NCBI GenBank assembly: GCA_046595005.1
Contig: JBKJPL010000036.1
Coordinates: 35,140 to 99,139, forward strand
Reading direction: 5' to 3'
DNA length: 64,000 nt
Source of the DNA: Bacteriovoracaceae bacterium
Lineage (GTDB): Bacteria; Bdellovibrionota; Bacteriovoracia; Bacteriovoracales; Bacteriovoracaceae
Position 1 is the first letter of the stretch, and every line of letters begins with the position of its first letter. Positions 1 through 9,031 of the stretch are shown here, one piece after another. The notes beneath the pieces are model-generated. The model had not been told where the DNA came from. It was given only the letters and a program-made list of their open reading frames with translations, and did no database searches. A program made the translations under genes and the position numbers.

Positions 1-60
1 TGACGTAATATCCACGTCAATCTGTTCATTATTACGTTTTCTTGCGAATCTCTTCTTCAT
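1..60 (-). CDS. Second ExbD/TolR-family protein (AglS/AglV-like), 5' fragment running off the window edge
   Basis: Reverse complement of 1-60 reads MKKRFARKRNNEQIDVDITS; the ATG overlaps the TGA of the upstream ExbD; basic N-terminus then D-I-T-S, as at the start of the ExbD TM segment. Not in the ORF track. Confidence 0.7.
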   Translation of the reverse strand, partial: MKKRFARKRNNEQIDVDITS

Positions 61-518
61 TTGCCGACTCCTGAGTTATCAAATACGATCTGCTCGAAGA
101 TTTTTTCTTTCTTCAGACGATCACCCTGAGTGTTATCAATAAAGGTGATGAGATACTGGAAAGAAATCTTCGGATCGGCTTTGACGATCATGGTATTTTC
201 TTTCGGATTAGTTGCTTTCAACTCACGAAGATAGTTAGTCAGGTCCGGTCCTTGTGTTGACGCAAATGAGCGTGAACGAAGATTCTTGATACCAGTCTTC
301 ACCACCACCTGATCCTTACTAACTTCTAAAGTCAAATTCAGAGGATCTTTGTCCTTCTTGTCTTCAATTTCTTGTGTCATCGGAAGGGAGGAACCGATTT
401 CATAGACATCAACAAACTGAGCAGACATCAGAAGGAAGAAGATGAAGATGAACACTGAATCCAGGATGGGAACCAGGTTCAGTTTTTCAATTTTTTTAAT
501 CTTGCGACCTGTTTTCAT
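57..518 (-). CDS. exbD: ExbD/TolR-family biopolymer transport protein (AglS-like)
   Basis: LNLVPILDSVFIFIFFLLM TM segment with the conserved Asp; C-terminal IVKADPKISF periplasmic motif; directly follows a TolQ/ExbB gene. Confidence 0.9.
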   Translation of the reverse strand: MKTGRKIKKIEKLNLVPILDSVFIFIFFLLMSAQFVDVYEIGSSLPMTQEIEDKKDKDPLNLTLEVSKDQVVVKTGIKNLRSRSFASTQGPDLTNYLRELKATNPKENTMIVKADPKISFQYLITFIDNTQGDRLKKEKIFEQIVFDNSGVGK

Positions 519-540
519 AACAACCTCTGAGAAAACTTAA

Positions 541-1260
541 TTAAGCAGCTTTATCTTCTTTCGAAATTCCCTGCTTCTTAGTCGACAGGAGATCGAGAAG
601 CTTCACTGAATTCTCTTCAATTTCCTGGATCATCTTCTCACCACGGGCCATGAGGAAAGCGTGAACCACCATGAGAGAAATCGCAGATAAGAGACCAAGA
701 GCTGTAGTGTTCATCGCTACCGCAATACCTTCAGCGAGGAGCTGGGCTTTTTGAGAAGCTTCAGCACCGGCAACTGCTGCGAATGACTGAATCAGACCCT
801 GAATGGTTCCGAGAAGTCCGAGGAGTGTTGAAAGGTTCGCGCAGAGAGCGAGATATGAAAGTCGTTTTTCGATTTTCGGAACTGTTTCGAGGATTGATGC
901 CTCGAGAGCGTCCTGAATTTGTTCTTTTGATTGATTCGCGCGCTTGAGACCATTTTTCATCACGAACGCGAGAAGTGATGGAGACTCAGAACAAGACTGG
1001 ATGGCGTCCTGAACCTGATTTCCGATTACCCATTTTTTAATTGAGGCCATGAGACTTGTACCATCAATGTCATACTTGAAGAAGCACTTGAGCCTCTCAA
1101 AGCAGATCGCGATACCGATCGCCCATATGACGGCGATAACCCACATGAAGATACCACCCTCGACCATGAATCGGGCAGACCACTGTAGCATTGTTTCCTG
1201 GACGATTGGTGATGCTGCTACTGCGGCAGCAGCGGTTTGTGTAGCTGTAACTGGATCCAT
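541..1260 (-). CDS. MotA/TolQ/ExbB proton channel subunit (AglR-like)
   Basis: LLGLLGTIQGLIQSF and GIAVAMNTTALGL TM motifs typical of the MotA/TolQ/ExbB family. Confidence 0.92.
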   Translation of the reverse strand: MDPVTATQTAAAAVAASPIVQETMLQWSARFMVEGGIFMWVIAVIWAIGIAICFERLKCFFKYDIDGTSLMASIKKWVIGNQVQDAIQSCSESPSLLAFVMKNGLKRANQSKEQIQDALEASILETVPKIEKRLSYLALCANLSTLLGLLGTIQGLIQSFAAVAGAEASQKAQLLAEGIAVAMNTTALGLLSAISLMVVHAFLMARGEKMIQEIEENSVKLLDLLSTKKQGISKEDKAA

Positions 1261-1435
1261 TAGTTCCCCCCTATTGAGATAGACTCAAAGCTTGCTTTTA
1301 AATTGTGTATTAATGATGGAAGCATCAATGAACGTCGTTCACTGAATGCGATTGAAATTAAAATATTTCGTTTCATTAAAAAGCCAGAACAGACCTTTGG
1401 GCCTTATTCTTTTTCAGTCCGGAACGTATCAGCAG

Positions 1436-1463
1436 ACGTGCAGCGTGGAGTAACGTTCAACAA
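1436..1463 (-). promoter_or_regulatory. Conserved 28-bp motif, copy 1, upstream of tolQ/exbD/exbD
   Basis: ACGTGCAGCGTGGAGTAACGTTCAACAA matches 5612-5639 at 25/28 positions; the sense strand reads TGAAC-N16-CGTC (ECF-promoter-like). Confidence 0.6.
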
Positions 1464-1611
1464 GTATACCGGACTAAAACAATCGAAACTGGTTCATTCT
1501 ATATGTTAAAAAACCAATATCAAGCCAACGTATCGGCAAAAAAAGCCGGAACCCAAGGGTTAAAGTGACTTAAAAATATGTGGGGGGCGAAAAGTTTCTG
1601 AAGGGAGAGGA

Positions 1612-1637
1612 AAATCGCCAACAAAAGTTGGCGATTT
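1612..1637 (-). terminator. Hairpin, probable intrinsic terminator after cglF
   Basis: Perfect 11-bp stem AAATCGCCAAC / GTTGGCGATTT with a 4-nt loop, 5 nt after the stop at 1643; the U-tract is short. Confidence 0.65.
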
Positions 1638-1642
1638 GCAGA

Positions 1643-1906
1643 TTATCTCAAGGAATCAACATCTTTCTTCTGGAAGGTATCGAAGTTCTTGCGGGTATAG
1701 AGATCAAGTTCGAAGCGCTTGCGCTCTCTTTCCCGAACTGAGATATCACCGGGGGCTATGAGCTGCCCTTTTACCTCAAGATTTCCTAGGTCGAACTTCT
1801 CATACTTCTTATACTGATAAATCACTTTAGGCTCGGTTTTTGGAGCTTCCTGGGCCATCGCCGGAGTAAGCACAAGGAGACTAAGTGATAACAACAAATA
1901 TTTCAT
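1643..1906 (-). CDS. cglF: CglF/GltF-like small secreted gliding-motility protein
   Basis: Signal peptide, then YKKYEKFDLGNLEVKGQLIAPG...RERKRF...RKNF...DVDSL, matching from memory the myxobacterial CglF pattern (Y.KK..IDF....EGEL.KP.G...RK...F...R.NF). Confidence 0.7.
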   Translation of the reverse strand: MKYLLLSLSLLVLTPAMAQEAPKTEPKVIYQYKKYEKFDLGNLEVKGQLIAPGDISVRERERKRFELDLYTRKNFDTFQKKDVDSLR

Positions 1907-1915
1907 AGACCCTTC

Positions 1916-3370
1916 CTATTCTTTCTTATCGGCACTTTCTTCGGAATTACTTTCTTCGGTACTGTCTTCGTTCGAGAGAGTCTCTGTTCTGTAGGTCTGG
2001 CAGTTTGATTTAAGACCAAAGGAATAATCCCCCAACTCATCGGCCCAGAAAGCACCATGAAATTTCCAGAACTCTTCGAAGCGTGTTCTTGTCACGTTCG
2101 AGAAGTCACCGCGACCTCGGTCAGCTACGAGCTTCTTACCGCTATAGACGAGATCCTTCTTCCGCGAAAGAACTTCAAGGTTCACCTTAAAGAGCTCGGA
2201 CGAGAAGAATGGAACACTCTCCAGGAACTGGAAGATATCGGTCTTAGCGTTGTAGTTAATTTTAGTAATCATGTTCTCTCTCACCGAAGCGAGGTGAGGA
2301 ATGAGCTTGTGCTGGATTTCTTTTTTCTCACTCAGAATCCGCTTCATTTCCTGATTGATTTTATAGATCGAATTGAAGTCGAGGCTGAAGCGGGTCTGCT
2401 TCTTCATCCTGGTTACAATCTGACGGGTGAAGGTTTCATGTTTCTTTAATTCTTCGCCCGGACGGAACATGAGATTGTAAAAATAGTTCGGGGTGCTGTT
2501 ATGTTTTCTCATCACTGCTTCCAGGGCCTGGAAACGCGGACGATAAAACTGATAGTACTGATTAATGATCGTCAGTGAGTCGTCGTAGAGACACAAACGG
2601 AAATATGCCAGTGCTGTAAGATACTCTGCTTCCGGAAAGAAGTAAGTATCAAGTAGTGGCGACTTATAAGTAACAAGAAGTCCCAATGTACGGTTGAAAT
2701 CCCCTAACTGATAGTAGGCCCATGCCTTTTCCAGAATAATATACGGCCACTTGTAAGAGCGCTTAGGAACTTTATTATAAGAATCAATTGAGGCCTGATA
2801 ATTACCGACCTTGTAATGGTGACGAGCGCGGTTAATGAGACAGATCTCGTAAACCATGCGGAAGTAGCGTCCGATTTTCTCACTCGCCGCTTTCTTCTCC
2901 TGCTTTTCAGCACTCACCTGACAGCGGTCGTATGCCGCAAATTCCATATCCTTATTCTTCAGACCATCATGGACCTGGGCCAGAAGTAACTGGGACTCAG
3001 GATAATAACGGTGATCAGGATGGACCTTGTCCATGAGATCAAATGCTTTCTTTAAATCTTTTTTCTGAATAGCCTGACGTCCAAGAATGAAGCGCGTGGA
3101 TGAAGTCGGAAAACGCGCGAGCATGGTTGGTTCGTAATCTTCGAGAATCTCGATACCAGTGAAGTAAAGAAGCTCCTCAAGTCTGGTAAGATCATTTTTG
3201 GTTACTTCACGGAAATATGTTTCCTTGAAGAACTCGTTAAGTGCTGAGTAGTAATATTTTTTCTCTTCCAGCTTCTGAGAAAACAATTCTTTTGGTTGCG
3301 CCACACCTGGTTGGGTCTGTGCGAATGCCGAAAAACTGTAAAGAAGGAAAAGAGCGATTAGTATTTTCAT
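1916..3370 (-). CDS. gltC: Secreted TPR protein, GltC-like gliding-motility component
   Basis: Signal peptide, TPR-like helices, LEKAWAYYQLGDFNRTLG..VTYKSP...FFPEAEYLTALAYFRLCLYDD motif resembling GltC; lies between an OM barrel and CglF. Confidence 0.7.
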   Translation of the reverse strand: MKILIALFLLYSFSAFAQTQPGVAQPKELFSQKLEEKKYYYSALNEFFKETYFREVTKNDLTRLEELLYFTGIEILEDYEPTMLARFPTSSTRFILGRQAIQKKDLKKAFDLMDKVHPDHRYYPESQLLLAQVHDGLKNKDMEFAAYDRCQVSAEKQEKKAASEKIGRYFRMVYEICLINRARHHYKVGNYQASIDSYNKVPKRSYKWPYIILEKAWAYYQLGDFNRTLGLLVTYKSPLLDTYFFPEAEYLTALAYFRLCLYDDSLTIINQYYQFYRPRFQALEAVMRKHNSTPNYFYNLMFRPGEELKKHETFTRQIVTRMKKQTRFSLDFNSIYKINQEMKRILSEKKEIQHKLIPHLASVRENMITKINYNAKTDIFQFLESVPFFSSELFKVNLEVLSRKKDLVYSGKKLVADRGRGDFSNVTRTRFEEFWKFHGAFWADELGDYSFGLKSNCQTYRTETLSNEDSTEESNSEESADKKE

Positions 3371-3379
3371 GTCCGGACC

Positions 3380-4075
3380 TTAAAATGAAAAGCCGACAGA
3401 GATAATCACGTCGGTATTCACGCGCAGTTTTTTAGTTGGAGATCTTGGTCCTGCGGCAGTCCAGTATGTATTGAAGTATTCCGCTGATACGTGCCAGTTT
3501 TCTGTCAGGTGGAACTTCAAATTGGTCTTAAGGGTTGCACCAGTGAACGACTCATTCTTGAAGTAAGTTTTAACATTCCCCTTCTTCACAGATTCGAGGT
3601 TCGATTCAGCATTGATCTTTGCAAGACCAGCTCCGAACGACCAGTCAAAATAGAAGATTTGATTGAACGTATTAATTTTTCCATAGAACGGAGACCAGAT
3701 GATATTTGCACCGTAAGTGCTGTTAAGCCTTCTGATGAAGGGCTCCTGAGAGTTAATCAATCTGACGTTTCTAAAGTCATCGTTATTCTGGTTTGTGTAT
3801 CCATGATAGAAGCCCTCTATCCCCCACTCTTCGTGGAAATAAAATCCTGCTTTCGCTGCATACCCGTAAGTATCCTGGAACTTCGAAGTGAAGTTACTCA
3901 AGTAACCCAGATCGAAATAGCCAGTGTGTTCTTTTTTGTAGAGTTTGTTCTGGAGAACGTAAACTTTCTTATCAGGATCCAGCCAGAGGAAGTCGTATAA
4001 CGACTTCTCTCCGGCGTGGACTTTATTTGTCATCATGAGAGCTGTAAAAAGAGCAAGCAGTGTCAGCTTAAGCAT
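3380..4075 (-). CDS. Outer-membrane beta-barrel protein (GltA/GltB/GltH-like)
   Basis: Signal peptide, amphipathic strands, WSPFYGKIN motif, C-terminal aromatic ending VGFSF; gliding-cluster context. Confidence 0.8.
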   Translation of the reverse strand: MLKLTLLALFTALMMTNKVHAGEKSLYDFLWLDPDKKVYVLQNKLYKKEHTGYFDLGYLSNFTSKFQDTYGYAAKAGFYFHEEWGIEGFYHGYTNQNNDDFRNVRLINSQEPFIRRLNSTYGANIIWSPFYGKINTFNQIFYFDWSFGAGLAKINAESNLESVKKGNVKTYFKNESFTGATLKTNLKFHLTENWHVSAEYFNTYWTAAGPRSPTKKLRVNTDVIISVGFSF

Positions 4076-4091
4076 AGAATCAATCCTTCGA

Positions 4092-5552
4092 TTACTTAAC
4101 TTTTATATACTTCACTGTAACCTGAGCCCCGATTGGAGGCAAGTTTCCTGCATGAAACTTGATCGAACGGGAAGCTGAATCGTATGAATAAGCTGAAGAT
4201 TCAACACCATTTACAAAAACCTTCAGAGAACCGTCCGCTGGCTTACCAGCAAGAGCAAATGAATCCAGTAGATCGATTATAGAATCACCCATTTCCAAAA
4301 GAACGTTATCGAAACGATCCATGATGTCTGACATCTTACCGGCAGTAAGTTTTGAAGCTTCTTCGTAACGAACGTGACCGATTGTATTACCACCAGTATT
4401 AACGTCATTAGCATTTACGATCGTATAGACTTTAACGAGACCTTCCTGTGACTTTTGCGCTTTGAGGTTATCGACATAAAATTTAACAGCCTCAGAAGAC
4501 TGATCTTCCTCGTCGGATAAAATAACCACGGCTAAGTAGGCTTCAGGACGGATCCAGTTTGAATACTTGCTTACGAATCCTTCTGTAGCAGCGAGCCCTT
4601 TCTCATAACCTGAACCTTTAATTCCAACCTGAACCATAGATAAAAAGTTTTCATAGAACTTCTGCTCATCTGCTTTCGCAGCTGCAGAAGTAAGTGCTGT
4701 AGTTGAGCCTGGGACGATCGCCCCTTTTTTAGCTTCTGAGCTTGTATCGGTTGTTGTAATCGCCATTTTGAAATCAACATTCTTAGAGATAAAACCTTTG
4801 ATAAAAGAATCGAAATTCTCACCAAGTGCTTTCTGCTCATCGGCCATTGAGCCGGAATTGTCGATTACCCAAAGGATATCGATTTTCTTAGTCTGTTCAG
4901 CAGTTTGCTGAAATTTTTCCTCAGCGTAACAAACTTCAGTTGCATTAGGATCTTTTGAAGCGTTTGGTCCGCCATTACCCTGACCAGGATTTGAATCGTC
5001 TACGCCGTCATCATCGTTACCGTGACCATTGTTACAGTCACCGATACCGCCAGTAGTTGAACCTGTTGTTGATCCACCAGTAGTAGAACCTGTTGTTGAT
5101 CCACCAGTAGTAGAACCAGTTGTTGATCCACCAGTAGTTGAACCTGTAGTTGATCCACCAACAGTTCCGCCAGATGTAGAACCACCAGTTGTATCTCCAG
5201 TAGTAGAACCACCGGTTGTAGATCCACCAACTGTACCGCCAGAAGTAGAACCACCGGTTGTAGATCCACCAACTGTACTGCCAGAAGTCGAATCACCAGT
5301 AGTAGAACCACCAGCAGTTGTTCCGTCAGTAGAACCGCTGGTTACTCCTGAGTCCACCCCCGCAGTTTCGCCACCAGTTGTTTCAGAGGTGTCATCCGCG
5401 TATGGATTATCGAGATAATCTTTTTGATAGAACTCTTCTTTGTTACAAGCTGTAACGCTGGCAACGAAGAGAAGAGTCATTGCAAGACGGTTAAAGTTAA
5501 AATGAACCGAATTTTTGGCGAACCAAAATCCATTTGTAAGTGAGTGTTTCAT
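4092..5552 (-). CDS. Lipoprotein with Gly/Thr/Ser-rich stalk and C-terminal vWA-like domain
   Basis: Lipobox VTAC; about 120-aa GSTT-rich linker; DILWVIDNSGSM MIDAS (DxSxS) motif and VILSDEED. Confidence 0.8.
   Translation of the reverse strand: MKHSLTNGFWFAKNSVHFNFNRLAMTLLFVASVTACNKEEFYQKDYLDNPYADDTSETTGGETAGVDSGVTSGSTDGTTAGGSTTGDSTSGSTVGGSTTGGSTSGGTVGGSTTGGSTTGDTTGGSTSGGTVGGSTTGSTTGGSTTGSTTGGSTTGSTTGGSTTGSTTGGIGDCNNGHGNDDDGVDDSNPGQGNGGPNASKDPNATEVCYAEEKFQQTAEQTKKIDILWVIDNSGSMADEQKALGENFDSFIKGFISKNVDFKMAITTTDTSSEAKKGAIVPGSTTALTSAAAKADEQKFYENFLSMVQVGIKGSGYEKGLAATEGFVSKYSNWIRPEAYLAVVILSDEEDQSSEAVKFYVDNLKAQKSQEGLVKVYTIVNANDVNTGGNTIGHVRYEEASKLTAGKMSDIMDRFDNVLLEMGDSIIDLLDSFALAGKPADGSLKVFVNGVESSAYSYDSASRSIKFHAGNLPPIGAQVTVKYIKVK
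5047..5330 (-). repeat. Coding tandem repeats encoding (G)STTGGSTTG and GGTVGGSTT
   Basis: Four near-identical 27-bp units at 5047-5154 (e.g. CCACCAGTAGTAGAACCTGTTGTTGAT), plus a duplicated GTAGAACCACCGGTTGTAGATCCACCAACTGTA; variation falls at wobble positions. Confidence 0.9.
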
Positions 5553-5611
5553 GGTTTTCCCAGAAACAGACTGTTAAGCCATGCGGTTCTTTCTAATTTC
5601 GGGATCAACAA

Positions 5612-5639
5612 ACGTGCAGCGTGAATTAACGTCCAACAA
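5612..5639 (-). promoter_or_regulatory. Conserved 28-bp motif, copy 2, upstream of the vWA-barrel-gltC-cglF operon
   Basis: ACGTGCAGCGTGAATTAACGTCCAACAA, 25/28 identical to 1436-1463, same orientation relative to the downstream genes. Confidence 0.6.
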
Positions 5640-5819
5640 CAAAATTAGAAAAAAAGAATTTATTACTTAAAACGGATTCTACTCTCCTCATTACCGAATT
5701 CAACTGGTATGCAGCCGAAAAATCGAGAAACGCCGGGAGTATAAACCTTTAGAAGTTTGTAGCCTCTAATCGGTGACAGGCCAGAAAACTCAAGCCAAAT
5801 GTTGTTGGCAGTGGAAGTA

Positions 5820-6404
5820 TCAGAAACCTAACAGGAGTTTTGAACCAGGCTTCTTCTCGATTTTGGACCAGGCCCCGCGGACATTATCAAGATCGTTCCC
5901 TACTATCATCTCGCAGGCACCATTATTCCCGGTGAAATTGAGACGGTTGAAGAACTTCATCTTTTTGAGCTCAGTAAAGTGAAGGGTTCCCACTTTAGGA
6001 CATTCAACGACAAAGGAACCTATATAGGTGGGGGATTTCTTTTTGATTTCAAACTGAAAGAGTTCCTGACCTTCGAGCGCATCGTACTTTTCAGCACCGA
6101 CGGCGACGGACTCAATATTATAGTGGCCGGCCGGAAGCTCGATATCCGAGAGAGTTGTTTCTACCCTGATGTACTCTTTCTTCCCGGATTCCCGGTGATA
6201 AAGGGCAAATTCTATATCAGCGGGATAAATGAGATGCCAGACTGCCCGACTTTTTCGGATGGACTTCTCAGCCTTTTTCACTGGGTTCGTAACCCGCTTC
6301 ACTTTATCCGCATGAACAGGACCTGGTTTCACAGGTTCAGTCTTCCGGAAAGAAGCACAGCTGGAGAGGAAAATAACAAGTGCCAAGACAATCATAGTTC
6401 GCAT
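5820..6404 (-). CDS. Hypothetical lipoprotein
   Basis: MRTMIVLALVIFLSSC lipoprotein signal; TATAGT 6 nt upstream of the ATG. Confidence 0.75.
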   Translation of the reverse strand: MRTMIVLALVIFLSSCASFRKTEPVKPGPVHADKVKRVTNPVKKAEKSIRKSRAVWHLIYPADIEFALYHRESGKKEYIRVETTLSDIELPAGHYNIESVAVGAEKYDALEGQELFQFEIKKKSPTYIGSFVVECPKVGTLHFTELKKMKFFNRLNFTGNNGACEMIVGNDLDNVRGAWSKIEKKPGSKLLLGF

Positions 6405-6421
6405 GTCTATACTATATCACC
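6405..6421. promoter_or_regulatory. Overlapping back-to-back -10 hexamers between divergent start codons
   Basis: TATACT (+, 6408-6413) is 8 nt before ATG 6422; TATAGT (-, 6416-6411) is 6 nt before ATG 6404. Confidence 0.55.
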
Positions 6422-7453
6422 ATGACGTCAGTGTATTCAATGACTTCTCAAAAATGGAAAGACTTTCTTCTGGAAAACGGAGCATCGCTCCCCACTCTTC
6501 CCTATTGGCTCGAGGGTCTCTACCGAAATGCGGATCTGTGGAAGAAACATATTTCCCCGGATTTCGTGGCGCGCGCCCGCGGAAAACTTGATTTCTCGCT
6601 GCCAGAAATTACAAAAACTCATGAAGCTTCTGACGGAACAACTAAGTTTCAGATGAAAATGTCCGATGGCCTTGAAGTTGAGACTGTACTCATCCCCTTT
6701 CATAAACGTTTTACGGTTTGTCTTTCTACTCAGGTCGGTTGCGGAATGAATTGTTCATTCTGCTACACGGGGACGATGGGCCTCCGTAGAAATCTCACTG
6801 CCGGTGAGATAGTAGGACAGTATCTGAAGGCGCGCGAGTTTTTGAGACAAAAAAATCCCAAGGCGCTTAATCCCAGTGTGGTTTTCATGGGCCAGGGTGA
6901 GCCACTCCACAATGTGACTGAAGTTAAGAGTTCTGTTGAAATACTCAATGATCCACATATGTGCGATGTGGGCTTAAGACAAATGACCTTATCGACGGTC
7001 GGATATTTACCCGGCATGGAGGAGCTGAAATCATTTCCCCGGATCAATATTGCCTTATCACTTCATTCACCTTTTGATGAAGAAAGAAATCTCCTCATCC
7101 CTGTTAATCAGAAATATAATCTCAAAGAAGTCCTCGCAAAACTTGATGAGCTTTCAAGACAGTTCATCACGTTTGAATATCTTCTGGTGAAAGACTTCAA
7201 CATGTCCGAACAGCATGCAGATGAGCTCGCTACCCTTCTGGGTCACAGGAACGCCATCATGAATCTCATTCCCATGAATCCCTTCCCCGGTTCCCGTTGG
7301 GAGCGTCCGGATGCTGATGATGTGGAAAAATTCAAAGAGCTTCTGGTGAAAAGAAAGCTCAGAGTGATGGTAAGAGAAACTAAGGGCGATGATATCCTTG
7401 CTGCCTGCGGACAACTCAGGGTAGAAAGTAGTGCGAGGAGAAAACATGTCTGA
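6422..7453 (+). CDS. rlmN: Dual-specificity RNA methyltransferase RlmN (radical SAM)
   Basis: CLSTQVGCGMNCSFC (CxxxCxxC), MGQGEP, ISLHSP-like ALSLHSP, and DILAACGQL with the methyl-carrying Cys. Confidence 0.92.
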   Translation: MTSVYSMTSQKWKDFLLENGASLPTLPYWLEGLYRNADLWKKHISPDFVARARGKLDFSLPEITKTHEASDGTTKFQMKMSDGLEVETVLIPFHKRFTVCLSTQVGCGMNCSFCYTGTMGLRRNLTAGEIVGQYLKAREFLRQKNPKALNPSVVFMGQGEPLHNVTEVKSSVEILNDPHMCDVGLRQMTLSTVGYLPGMEELKSFPRINIALSLHSPFDEERNLLIPVNQKYNLKEVLAKLDELSRQFITFEYLLVKDFNMSEQHADELATLLGHRNAIMNLIPMNPFPGSRWERPDADDVEKFKELLVKRKLRVMVRETKGDDILAACGQLRVESSARRKHV

Positions 7454-8246
7454 TTCTACTTATGATGCCCGCTTCTCCGGAATCGCCAGGCTCTATGGGC
7501 TAAGGGCCCAGGAGAGAATCAGAACCGCTAGTGTACTGGTAGTCGGAATTGGTGGCGTGGGCTCCTGGATTGCAGAATCACTTGCCCGTACCGGAATTGG
7601 TGCCTTGACCCTCGTTGATCTTGATGACGTTTGTGTGACGAATGTGAATCGTCAGATTCATGCGGTATCAAGCACCGTCGGACGCTTTAAAGTCGAAGTC
7701 ATGAAAGAAAGACTAATGGATATTCATCCTTACTGCGATATTGATATCAAGCAGTGTTTCTTCAGTCCGAAAAATATCGAAAAAGTTTTTGATAAAAAAT
7801 ATGATTTTGTCATCGATGCCTGTGATGACTTCAATAATAAATGTTACCTGATTGATTACTGCCGGAAGAATAGTATTCCCATGATCGTCATGGGAGGTGC
7901 CGGTGGAAAGGTTGATCCACTCCAGATACGTGTTTCTGATATGTCTTTTTCTCAGAATGACAAATTACTTTCACGAATCAGAAAAATTCTGCGCCAGGAA
8001 TTTGCTTTCCCCAGGCAAAACGAGGGTGAATTCGGAATAACAGCAGTGTGGTCGCATGAGCGCGCGGTTTACCCAACTGCCAACGGATGTACAACCCACA
8101 GGCCTCAGGGGATTTCAAAAAATATGGATTGTAGTGAAGGTTTTGGTTCAGCGAGTTTTTTGACAGGATCATTTGCATTCGTCGCGGCTTCAATTGTTAT
8201 TCGTGAACTTACGAAAGGATTTGTAGATGTTGAAATTTCTGAATGA
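7446..8246 (+). CDS. tcdA: tRNA threonylcarbamoyladenosine dehydratase (ThiF/E1-like)
   Basis: RFSGIARLYG, GIGGVGSW, DLDDVCVTNVNRQ, GGAGGKVDP, GFGSASFLTGSF; start re-called at ATG 7446, overlapping the rlmN stop. Confidence 0.9.
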   Translation: MSDSTYDARFSGIARLYGLRAQERIRTASVLVVGIGGVGSWIAESLARTGIGALTLVDLDDVCVTNVNRQIHAVSSTVGRFKVEVMKERLMDIHPYCDIDIKQCFFSPKNIEKVFDKKYDFVIDACDDFNNKCYLIDYCRKNSIPMIVMGGAGGKVDPLQIRVSDMSFSQNDKLLSRIRKILRQEFAFPRQNEGEFGITAVWSHERAVYPTANGCTTHRPQGISKNMDCSEGFGSASFLTGSFAFVAASIVIRELTKGFVDVEISE

Positions 8247-8577
8247 TGTAAAAGATTTCCTGACAAATACGGCGAAAGATTCCCGTATTCCCGACCGGGA
8301 TAAGAAAATTCTTCTCGCGATGATTGCTCTTCTTATTTCTCCGTTCGATATCATTCCAGACTGGATTCCCATCTTCGGAGTTCTCGACGACTTGATTATT
8401 CTTTCCGTTGTTCTCGATTACTTTTTTTCAGTTCTTGATCAGAACATAATCTTGTCCCATTTTCCGTGGGGCATGAAGAGTTATGTGCGCTTAAAATCCA
8501 TCACGCATGTTACACAGTATTTTGTTCCAAGAATTATCAAGAAGAAGCTCTGGAAGTACGTCGGGTCGCCGTATTGA
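8227..8577 (+). CDS. YkvA/DUF1232 family membrane protein
   Basis: LISPFDIIPDWIPIFGVLDDL signature. Confidence 0.88.
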   Translation: MLKFLNDVKDFLTNTAKDSRIPDRDKKILLAMIALLISPFDIIPDWIPIFGVLDDLIILSVVLDYFFSVLDQNIILSHFPWGMKSYVRLKSITHVTQYFVPRIIKKKLWKYVGSPY

Positions 8578-8895
8578 TTACATTCCGAAAAATTCGGTCA
8601 CAGATTTTTGTGGAACATGAGTATAGTGTGGAGCAATCACACTGAGATCACTTTCAATTGCGGAGAGTTGTTCTTTAGCGAGATCTGTTGAAGTTTCGGA
8701 CATTGTTACTGAAGCTGGAGATCTGTCGTTCTTTTCAATCTGAACAGGAATGCGTGCCTTGGTCTTCTCAGCTTCTTCAGCTGAAATCATATTCGACTTC
8801 ACCATCTCATCAATCAGAATAACTGCTTCATCCCGTGACACCTGGGCATTGGCAGTTGCAGAGAAGACTAGAAGAAGAGTTATGAGTAATCGCAT
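8578..8895 (-). CDS. Hypothetical secreted protein
   Basis: Signal peptide (SATANA); GAGG SD upstream. Confidence 0.65.
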   Translation of the reverse strand: MRLLITLLLVFSATANAQVSRDEAVILIDEMVKSNMISAEEAEKTKARIPVQIEKNDRSPASVTMSETSTDLAKEQLSAIESDLSVIAPHYTHVPQKSVTEFFGM

Positions 8896-9031
8896 ACGTT
8901 CACCTCGTTAGAGATTATCGGTGAACAACGCTGGGTACTTGACTAATTCCGGCGGTTTACTGGAGTTACAGTTATTTAGACTTACTTAATCTGACCAGGA
9001 ATGGTGGTAGCGACTTAGGAAATGCCCATTA

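What the first reader, a model, noticed from the sequence alone, without database searches (positions are those of the whole stretch)
1436..5639. 28-bp motif shared upstream of both gliding transcription units
Seen: ACGTGCAGCGTG(GAG/AAT)TAACGT(T/C)CAACAA at 1436-1463 and 5612-5639, 25/28 identical, both in otherwise unrelated intergenic DNA and in the same orientation. The sense strand reads TG(A/G)AC-N16-CGT(C/T), resembling an ECF-sigma promoter, but the spacer is also conserved, which points to a protein-binding site. Inference: a dedicated regulon signal that co-ordinates motor and OM genes.
Basis: partly seen in the sequence, partly recalled or inferred. Interest (0 to 1): 0.7.

Follow-up and report, generated by a model that had tools for sequence, protein, structure and literature searches.

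The report
Shared leader RNA on gliding operons
The repeated 28-base motif is real, but it is most likely not a promoter: it looks like the conserved core of a previously undescribed folded RNA leader that sits after ordinary promoters on the gliding-motor, outer-membrane and surface-lipoprotein genes of a family of predatory bacteria, and probably lets one factor control them together.

Summary
Observation confirmed: the two 28-mers (25/28 identical) exist as described, and none is expected by chance. The genes lie on the minus strand, so the sense reading is two tandem 9-mers (GYTGNACGT, 17 nt apart) plus a third GTTG box.

The genome, a soil Bacteriovoracaceae MAG, holds exactly five such sites. 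They precede:
- the aglR/TolQ-ExbD-ExbD-TPR-TPR-GltG motor operon;
- the MIDAS-lipoprotein / OM-barrel / GltC operon;
- three single lipoprotein genes.

The motif is conserved at orthologous loci in 46 of 50 other genomes of the genus. About 137 matches occur in 82 of 237 family genomes, against 4 control hits.

The ECF-promoter reading is not supported:
- Every site lies 24-42 nt downstream of a conserved sigma-70-type promoter (TTGnnn-16/17-TAGAAT).
- In a second family it follows a sigma-54 promoter and begins a small RNA with no ORF.
- The two "-35/-10" blocks are copies of each other.
- The core is enclosed by a stem whose sequence differs between sites but stays complementary: 15 of 15 pairs show compensatory changes.
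- A second covarying hairpin sits next to the ribosome-binding site.
- No sigma gene belongs to the regulon.

Best reading (about 0.7): a new cis-regulatory 5' leader RNA, absent from Rfam 15. Its effector is unknown; I favour a dimeric RNA-binding protein over a small-molecule ligand. No transcript data were available.

The parts
5698..5703 (-). site 2: -35-like hexamer TTGAAT
   Evidence: Lies 16 nt upstream of the -10 box. Function inferred.
5676..5681 (-). site 2: -10 box TAGAAT; predicted transcription start near 5669
   Evidence: TA..AT is invariant or near-invariant in 55 aligned instances. The start site is inferred, not measured.
5640..5654 (-). site 2: P1 5' arm (15 nt, U-rich)
   Evidence: the MFE fold reproduces it.
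5602..5611 (-). site 2: third GTTG box (TTGTTGATCC) inside the P1 loop
   Evidence: G79 and G82 near-invariant.
5587..5601 (-). site 2: P1 3' arm (purine-rich)
5569..5580 (-). site 2: hairpin P2 (GGCU-UAAC-AGUC). The Shine-Dalgarno GGGA at 5558-5561 and the ATG at 5550-5552 follow.
1643..5552 (-). outer-membrane gliding operon: MIDAS/vWA lipoprotein (4092-5552), OMP_myx_plus beta-barrel (3380-4075), GltC-like TPR protein (1916-3370), secreted 87-aa protein (1643-1906)
1518..1523 (-). site 1: -35-like hexamer TTGATA
   Evidence: 10 of 12 matches together with the -10 box.
1496..1501 (-). site 1: -10 box TAGAAT
1466..1475 (-). site 1: P1 5' arm (AGUCCGGUAU)
   Evidence: Its sequence is entirely different from the site 2 arm, yet it is complementary to its own partner.
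1436..1461 (-). site 1: conserved core (GTTGAACGT and GCTGCACGT)
1416..1429 (-). site 1: P1 3' arm (AUA, a 4-nt bulge, then CCGGACU)
1391..1404 (-). site 1: hairpin P2 (AGGCC-CAAA-GGUCU)
57..1260 (-). start of the motor/inner-membrane gliding operon: AglR-like MotA/TolQ channel (541-1260) and ExbD/TolR-like protein (57-518). It continues beyond the window with a second ExbD, two TPR proteins and a GltG-like protein.
1613..1638 (-). hairpin after the stop codon of the 87-aa ORF; a likely terminator that separates the two transcription units
   Evidence: Read. The scan did not call it. Inferred.

Best explanation
The 28-mer is the single-stranded core of a cis-acting 5' leader RNA. Transcription starts at an ordinary sigma-70-type promoter 24-42 nt upstream of the core. 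The nascent leader forms a 10-16-bp stem, P1. P1's sequence is free to vary, and it presents a loop of about 40 nt. That loop carries two tandem GUUGNACGU boxes 17 nt apart and a third GUUG box. A short hairpin, P2, follows and abuts the Shine-Dalgarno sequence; in most instances the core-to-ATG distance is fixed at 44-60 nt. A trans-acting factor recognises the repeated boxes and so sets translation initiation or mRNA stability for all carriers at once. In this genome the carriers are five units: the Agl motor/inner-membrane Glt operon, the outer-membrane Glt/adhesin operon and three lipoprotein genes. Shown: motif conservation, its position behind promoter-like sequences, P1 and P2 covariation, and the gene set. 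Inferred: the transcription start, the output (translation or stability) and the effector. My odds for the effector, within an overall 0.75 for an RNA-level element: about 0.4 for a dimeric or tandem-domain RNA-binding protein, because the architecture is a simple hairpin loop with repeated boxes and the same boxes head a small RNA in another family; about 0.2 for a small-molecule or second-messenger ligand (riboswitch); about 0.15 for base-pairing with another RNA, or a pure stability element.
For: Conservation: the strict pattern is found in 42 of 51 genomes of the genus, with 0 control hits, typically as two copies 4.0-4.2 kb apart as in the window. The relaxed pattern gives about 137 hits in 82 of 237 family genomes against 4 control hits. 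It is also in 5 of 9 genomes of a second family.

Promoters upstream: GAGTAGAAT is conserved 24-42 nt upstream. Full -35/-10 pairs are visible in many loci. A promoter score of 10 or more occurs in 28% of instances, against 2.8% of shuffles and 0% of downstream controls. The window promoters are at 5703-5676 and 1523-1496. In the second family a TGGCAC-N5-TTGC sigma-54 promoter abuts the core in 5 of 5 loci.

P1: on 97 distinct sequences, 87.6% of cells are paired against 62.7% in shuffles (0 of 500 reach the observed value). All 15 pairs show compensatory changes. The covariation score is 0.608, against at most 0.154 for slid controls. The top mutual-information column pairs are the P1 pairs. 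Without any alignment, cognate arms pair at -12.65 kcal/mol and non-cognate arms at -6.41.

P2: on a sequence-only alignment, 93.3% of cells are paired against 79.3% (0 of 500).

Strand: under scoring that treats G.U and A.C alike, stringent helices hold 65 G.U against 20 A.C. 102 of 111 instances have a same-strand ORF within 200 nt, and 69 of 105 downstream ORFs have a lipobox.

Family and copy number: no Rfam 15 family matches. The genome holds exactly five sites, with 0.08 expected by chance.
Against: There is no transcript evidence: only DNA metagenome runs hold this sequence, so the start site is predicted. The P1 pair counts come from an alignment fitted to the model. Single-sequence folding energies are not better than shuffles (z from -1.9 to +0.1). 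The G.U excess is partly compositional, since the 5' arm is U-rich and the 3' arm purine-rich; a lenient scoring gave no asymmetry (227 against 219). No further helix or pseudoknot was found inside the 40-nt loop. No mutually exclusive structure involving the Shine-Dalgarno sequence was found, so the output mechanism is open. No candidate binding protein was identified. In the second family the sequence corresponding to the P1 3' arm pairs instead with the 3' end of the small RNA, so P1 is not universal.
Confidence: 0.7

Rival explanations
1. Riboswitch variant of the RNA reading: the P1-closed core is an aptamer for a small molecule. Given the gene set (motility, adhesins, surface lipoproteins), the most attractive candidate is a cyclic-dinucleotide second messenger such as c-di-GMP or 3'3'-cGAMP. 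Ligand binding would stabilise P1 and change access to the nearby Shine-Dalgarno sequence.
For: About 17 core positions are invariant and lie outside Watson-Crick helices, between covarying stems. The element occurs in several copies per genome, on functionally linked motility and adhesin genes. An ORF-less small-RNA version exists, as with the c-di-GMP-riboswitch-derived merRNA of Bdellovibrio (Karunker et al. 2013, PMC3627812, recalled from my own knowledge, not re-read here). In Bdellovibrio, gliding is controlled by the cGAMP/c-di-GMP synthase Bd0367 (PMC9140294, title and abstract); that paper's text mentions riboswitches only for Geobacter.
Against: The architecture is very simple: one stem and a loop with repeated boxes. 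No junction or pseudoknot is detectable. No alternative expression-platform pairing was found. There is no similarity to any known riboswitch. The element was not found in 31 genomes of genus g95, an unnamed genus of another family in the phylum.
Confidence: 0.2
2. Double-stranded-DNA operator: a transcription factor, for example a response regulator that binds head-to-tail, recognises the two GTTGNACGT direct repeats just downstream of the promoter and represses the five units.
For: The motif consists of direct repeats of a 9-mer at a nearly fixed spacing (16-18 bp). Its position from about +17 to +60 suits a repressor. The repeat resembles the LytTR-type 9-mer consensus (own knowledge, not tested). 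In a genome of another phylum, an array of six such 9-mers follows a histidine-kinase gene.
Against: It does not explain why P1 encloses the core in the great majority of instances at a fixed offset (0-4 nt on the 5' side in 84 of 111, 9-13 nt on the 3' side in 87 of 111) with compensatory changes. It does not explain P2 or the fixed distance to the ATG. A 17-bp period puts the two sites on different faces of the helix. In the second family the core is the 5' end of a conserved small RNA.
Confidence: 0.12
3. ECF-sigma promoter: TG[G/A]AC is the -35 element, CGT is the -10 element 16 nt later, and transcription starts a few bases after the motif.
For: The letter pattern TGRAC-N16-CGT is present in all copies. 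The two blocks are conserved while the 7 nt between them vary. The spacer tolerates a change of 1 nt. A 35-50-nt untranslated region would result.
Against: Most copies read GGAC, not the AAC that typifies ECF -35 elements (own knowledge). The two blocks are the same 9-mer, identical in several lineages, whereas the -35 and -10 elements are read by different sigma domains. Conservation extends a further 7 nt past the '-10' block. A canonical sigma-70 or sigma-54 promoter is conserved upstream. The P1 5' arm, which would then be untranscribed, covaries with the 3' arm. None of the five units holds a sigma or anti-sigma gene, and the 4-5 ECF-type sigma genes lie elsewhere.
Confidence: 0.05

Closest known systems
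CsrA/RsmA-binding mRNA leaders and CsrB/RsmZ-type decoy small RNAs
   Same: Short repeated boxes are displayed in single-stranded loops of 5' leaders close to the Shine-Dalgarno sequence. Two boxes are spaced about 17-18 nt apart, which suits a dimer. The same boxes are also carried by a small RNA without an ORF. The targets include motility and surface genes.
   Different: The box is GUUGNACGU, not A(N)GGA. GGA is absent from one or both boxes in most lineages. The genome has one csrA gene, but nothing links it to these sites.
Second-messenger riboswitches (c-di-GMP-I/II, cGAMP GEMM-Ib) and the Bdellovibrio merRNA
   Same: Several copies per genome lie upstream of motility, adhesin and surface-protein genes. 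An ORF-less version exists. Conserved unpaired nucleotides lie between covarying stems.
   Different: There is no sequence or structure match (Rfam 15, E up to 10). The fold is much simpler, and no ligand is known.
ECF-sigma promoters (GGAAC-N16/17-CGT type)
   Same: The letter pattern and the spacing.
   Different: See the rival explanation: the blocks are repeats of each other, they lie inside a covarying hairpin downstream of another promoter, and no cognate sigma gene belongs to the regulon.
Guanidine-II (mini-ykkC) riboswitch
   Same: Two tandem units, each with an invariant ACG-containing tetranucleotide that could pair with its twin.
   Different: In that riboswitch each ACGR is the tetraloop of its own small hairpin. 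Here the boxes have no local stems and sit together in one large loop. Rfam gives no hit.

Membership tests
ECF-sigma-dependent promoter | -35 (GGAAC-like) and -10 (CGT-like) elements 16-17 nt apart | tested here: met
   TGRAC-N16-CGT is present in all window copies. Most copies, however, read GGAC rather than AAC.
ECF-sigma-dependent promoter | -35 and -10 are different elements, read by sigma regions 4 and 2 | tested here: not met
   The two blocks are copies of one 9-mer (GYTGNACGT) and are identical in several lineages.
ECF-sigma-dependent promoter | The same motif stands in front of the cognate sigma/anti-sigma operon (autoregulation, usual for ECF groups) | tested here: not met
   The five sites head lipoprotein or gliding units only. 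The Sigma70_r4_2 genes lie elsewhere.
ECF-sigma-dependent promoter | Transcription starts 5-9 nt downstream of the -10 element | not testable with these tools
   No RNA run holds this sequence.
Structured cis-regulatory 5' leader RNA (riboswitch or protein-binding leader) | Lies between a promoter and the start codon, in sense orientation | tested here: met
   The promoters are predicted, not mapped.
Structured cis-regulatory 5' leader RNA (riboswitch or protein-binding leader) | Helices supported by compensatory changes | tested here: met
   P1. P2.
Structured cis-regulatory 5' leader RNA (riboswitch or protein-binding leader) | Strand-specific pairing (G.U tolerated, A.C not) | tested here: inconclusive
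   65 G.U against 20 A.C under stringent symmetric scoring, but 227 against 219 under lenient scoring. Base composition alone predicts some excess.
Structured cis-regulatory 5' leader RNA (riboswitch or protein-binding leader) | Binds a ligand or protein and changes expression | not testable with these tools
   Needs probing, pull-down and reporter assays.
Any Rfam 15 family | Covariance-model match | tested here: not met
   No hit on either site at E up to 10 in window 1-9000.
CsrA-binding site | GGA in each bound box | tested here: not met
   The variable fifth base of each box means that many instances lack GGA in one or both boxes.

The most novel reading that the evidence does not exclude
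The element is a new riboswitch class that senses a cyclic-dinucleotide second messenger (c-di-GMP or 3'3'-cGAMP). It would switch on the whole gliding apparatus, its adhesins and its surface lipoproteins in Bacteriovoracaceae. The sigma-54-driven small RNA of the second family would then be a free-standing aptamer or sponge.
Probability: 0.12. Interest if true: 0.9.

Novelty: new member of a known kind. Interest (0 to 1): 0.6.

Why it matters
Little is known about how predatory Bdellovibrionota coordinate the genes of the Agl-Glt gliding machine with its adhesins. This element marks a compact, conserved regulon: the motor, the outer-membrane platform and several unassigned surface lipoproteins. 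It points to post-transcriptional control rather than promoter-level control. It gives a defined RNA of about 75-110 nt that can be used directly for pull-downs or ligand screens. It also nominates the uncharacterised lipoproteins as parts or cargo of the gliding system. And it is a caution: an ECF-like letter pattern can be a by-product of a repeated RNA box.

Tried and rejected
- One search used a pattern with one N too many. It found only +1-spacer variants and missed the window's own sites; one search corrected this.
- RNAalifold on the plain MAFFT alignment of 55 instances returned only the invariant ACGU:ACGU pairing, because the variable arms were misaligned. P1 was recovered only with a covariance-model alignment and with alignment-free duplex tests.
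- The ACGU:ACGU helix has no covariation for or against it, and the flanking positions do not pair consistently.
- Mutual information found no further pairs inside the loop.
- Alternative pairings gave no clear signal over non-cognate controls. Tested were the 5' arm with the SD, the core with the SD, the core with P2, and the arms with P2.
- Single-sequence folding z-scores are not significant.
- No RNA holder is listed for this DNA, so no read-based start site could be obtained.
- Neighbouring genes were checked for an RNA-binding protein: the 87-aa and 194-aa ORFs, a DsbA-like protein, a Zn-peptidase, and a DUF4423 protein next to the small RNA. None is a candidate.
- Hfq was not found in the genome.
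- A leader-peptide reading of the core was rejected: all three codon positions are invariant, and spacer indels shift the frame.
- Two literature searches found no description of the motif.
- With model R2 there was no significant hit in 31 genomes of genus g95 of another family.
- With the pattern, 301 genomes of the phylum that holds a Nannocystaceae MAG gave 9 hits against 14 control hits.
Full report
**Observation.** The window holds the 28-mer at 1436-1463 and 5612-5639 on the + strand. The copies are 25/28 identical, and none appears in 100 shuffles. All flanking genes are on the minus strand. The motif must therefore be read as its reverse complement: 59 nt upstream of ORF 4092-5552 and 175 nt upstream of ORF 541-1260.

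**Gene context.**
- ORF 4092-5552 is a lipoprotein with weak MIDAS-adhesin and CglD matches.
- ORF 3380-4075 is an OMP_myx_plus beta-barrel (88.7 bits, above its cut-off).
- ORF 1916-3370 is GltC-like (E 3.7e-35).
- ORF 541-1260 is a MotA/TolQ/ExbB channel, and ORF 57-518 is ExbD/TolR-like.
- Beyond the window edge the second unit continues with another ExbD, two TPR proteins and a GltG-like protein.

Contig titles of relatives place the genome in Bacteriovoracaceae. It is a soil MAG, found only in DNA metagenome runs.

**Copy number and conservation.**
- The whole genome has three strict copies.
- It has five copies by covariance model.
- Clustering of paired 9-mers gives exactly the same five places, with 0.08 expected by chance.
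- The three extra sites head monocistronic lipoprotein genes.
- In the genus, 42 of 51 genomes match the strict pattern, with no hit to the reversed control. The usual layout is two copies 4.0-4.2 kb apart, as in the window, and often a third elsewhere.
- A relaxed pattern (two 9-mers with a free fifth base and a free 7-nt spacer) gives about 137 hits in 82 of 237 family genomes, against 4 control hits.
- The relaxed pattern also hits 5 of 9 genomes of a second family of the phylum.
- It was not found in 31 genomes of genus g95 of another family, using the model.
- It is not above control in 301 genomes of the phylum that contains a Nannocystaceae MAG.

**What the wider alignment shows.**

*Conserved blocks.* The conserved parts are a 10-nt block and a 9-nt block, which are copies of one 9-mer. 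In several lineages the two copies are identical. The 7 nt between them vary, so the "conserved spacer" is a property of the two window copies only. A third GTTG box follows.

*Promoter upstream.* A GAGTAGAAT block lies 24-42 nt upstream, with TA..AT invariant or nearly so.
- Many loci show a complete -35/17 nt/-10 arrangement.
- Promoter scores of 10 or more occur in 28% of 111 instances, against 2.8% of shuffled flanks and 0% of downstream controls.
- The window sites have TTGAAT-16-TAGAAT (5703-5676) and TTGATA-16-TAGAAT (1523-1496).
- In the second family, a textbook sigma-54 promoter (TGGCAC-N5-TTGC) abuts the core in all five loci. There the conserved stretch runs about 140 nt to a U-tract, with no ORF: it is a small RNA whose 5' end is the motif.

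*Stem P1.* The core is bracketed by an inverted repeat whose sequence differs completely between sites but remains complementary.
- A covariance model seeded on 13 sequences aligned 98 instances.
- On these, 87.6% of cells pair, against 62.7% in shuffles (0 of 500 reach the observed value).
- All 15 pairs have changes on both sides.
- The covariation score is 0.608, against at most 0.154 when partners are slid by 1-3 columns.
- The highest mutual-information column pairs are the P1 pairs.
- That alignment is fitted to the model, so I also compared arms without any alignment. Cognate arms pair at -12.65 kcal/mol, non-cognate arms at -6.41 and shuffled arms at -5.83 (sd 2.55).
- In most instances the 5' arm ends 0-4 nt before the core (84 of 111) and the 3' arm starts 9-13 nt after it (87 of 111).

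*Hairpin P2 and the start codon.* A second small hairpin, P2, lies just before the Shine-Dalgarno sequence. In most instances the core-to-ATG distance is 44-60 nt. On a sequence-only MAFFT alignment, P2 is 93.3% paired against 79.3% in shuffles (0 of 500), and all five pairs show compensatory changes.

*Orientation and downstream genes.* 102 of 111 instances have a same-strand ORF within 200 nt. 69 of 105 downstream ORFs carry a lipobox. Most of the remainder are, by their length (about 228-239 aa), probably the AglR-type channel; only the window's copy was checked against a family library.

**Interpretation.** Three things belong to a transcribed, folded RNA rather than a promoter or a duplex-DNA site:
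- covarying stems at a fixed offset around an invariant core;
- a conserved promoter upstream;
- a fixed distance to the start codon.

The ECF resemblance (TGRAC-N16-CGT) arises because each 9-mer ends in ACGT and the two lie 17 nt apart. The ECF reading fails three tests:
- the two blocks are the same element;
- the supposedly untranscribed upstream arm covaries with the downstream arm;
- no sigma or anti-sigma gene is in the regulon, and the ECF-type sigma genes lie elsewhere.

Rfam 15 has no match, and two literature searches found no description. I therefore read the motif as a new cis-regulatory leader RNA.

**Mechanism: how far it goes.** The effector is not known.
- Features that favour a dimeric RNA-binding protein, on the model of CsrA leaders and CsrB-type decoys:
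  - a simple hairpin displaying repeated boxes;
  - no further helices in the loop;
  - no mutually exclusive pairing with the Shine-Dalgarno region;
  - the same boxes at the 5' end of a small RNA.
- The box is not a CsrA box, however: GGA is not conserved.
- The gene set (motility, adhesin, surface lipoproteins) would also suit a second-messenger riboswitch. This is the most novel reading that remains open.
- A duplex-DNA operator cannot be excluded as an additional role, but it does not explain P1 or P2.

**Caveats.**
- There are no RNA data.
- The promoters are predictions.
- Folding energies of single leaders are not better than shuffles.
- The G.U over A.C excess (65 against 20) is partly compositional and vanished under lenient scoring.
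- In the second family the sequence corresponding to the P1 3' arm is predicted to pair with the 3' end of the small RNA.

**Verdict.** The "regulon signal" idea is supported. The ECF-promoter and DNA-site mechanism is not supported. The motif is a new family of structured leader RNA, and I rate it of moderate to good interest.

Noticed in passing
L073:1470-1640 (also L072, L074-L076): In a second family of the phylum the same tandem-box core directly follows a sigma-54 promoter (TGGCAC-N5-TTGC) and starts a conserved transcript of about 140 nt without an ORF. The transcript has a hairpin whose loop is a run of 7-8 C, then a long terminal hairpin and a U-tract. It is probably a sigma-54-dependent small RNA: a possible decoy for the factor that binds the boxes, or an anti-Shine-Dalgarno regulator.
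   Followed up: partly
L151:1470-1720: In a 4.6-Mb genome of another phylum (46% GC locally), six GTTGNACGT 9-mers (0.16 expected) lie in three roughly 88-nt tandem units, in the ORF-free stretch right after a histidine-kinase gene. This could be a multi-site decoy RNA or a DNA binding array. Its relation to the leader element is unknown.
   Followed up: partly
G000:C52:23874-24398, C41:31462-32088, window 4092-5552 and many L-loci: Many motif-controlled lipoproteins share a short acidic-aromatic motif right after the lipid-modified Cys (C-N-K/P-D/E-D/E-F/Y-F/Y). It resembles the surface-export signals of Bacteroidota lipoproteins and may mark surface-exposed lipoproteins.
   Followed up: no
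window 1330-1342 (minus strand): The long aglR leader contains a further hairpin, UGAAC-GAC-GUUCA, of the same type as the P2 hairpins of the lipoprotein leaders (RRAC-NNC-GUYY). It lies about 95 nt after the core.
   Followed up: no
window 5907-5973 (minus strand): A weak fluoride-riboswitch-like match (22.3 bits, gathering score 34, E 0.011) lies inside the 194-aa lipoprotein ORF 5820-6404. Probably chance.
   Followed up: no
L155, L156 (G701): One 70%-GC genome of the other phylum carries five identical copies of a 26-mer that fits the pattern, partly as inverted pairs. It looks like an unrelated dispersed repeat.
   Followed up: no
G000:C52:23784-23856 and L001-L003: The spacer between the two boxes is 6 nt in one site of this genome and 8 nt in three sites of relatives, against 7 elsewhere. 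The element tolerates a change of 1 nt.
   Followed up: partly
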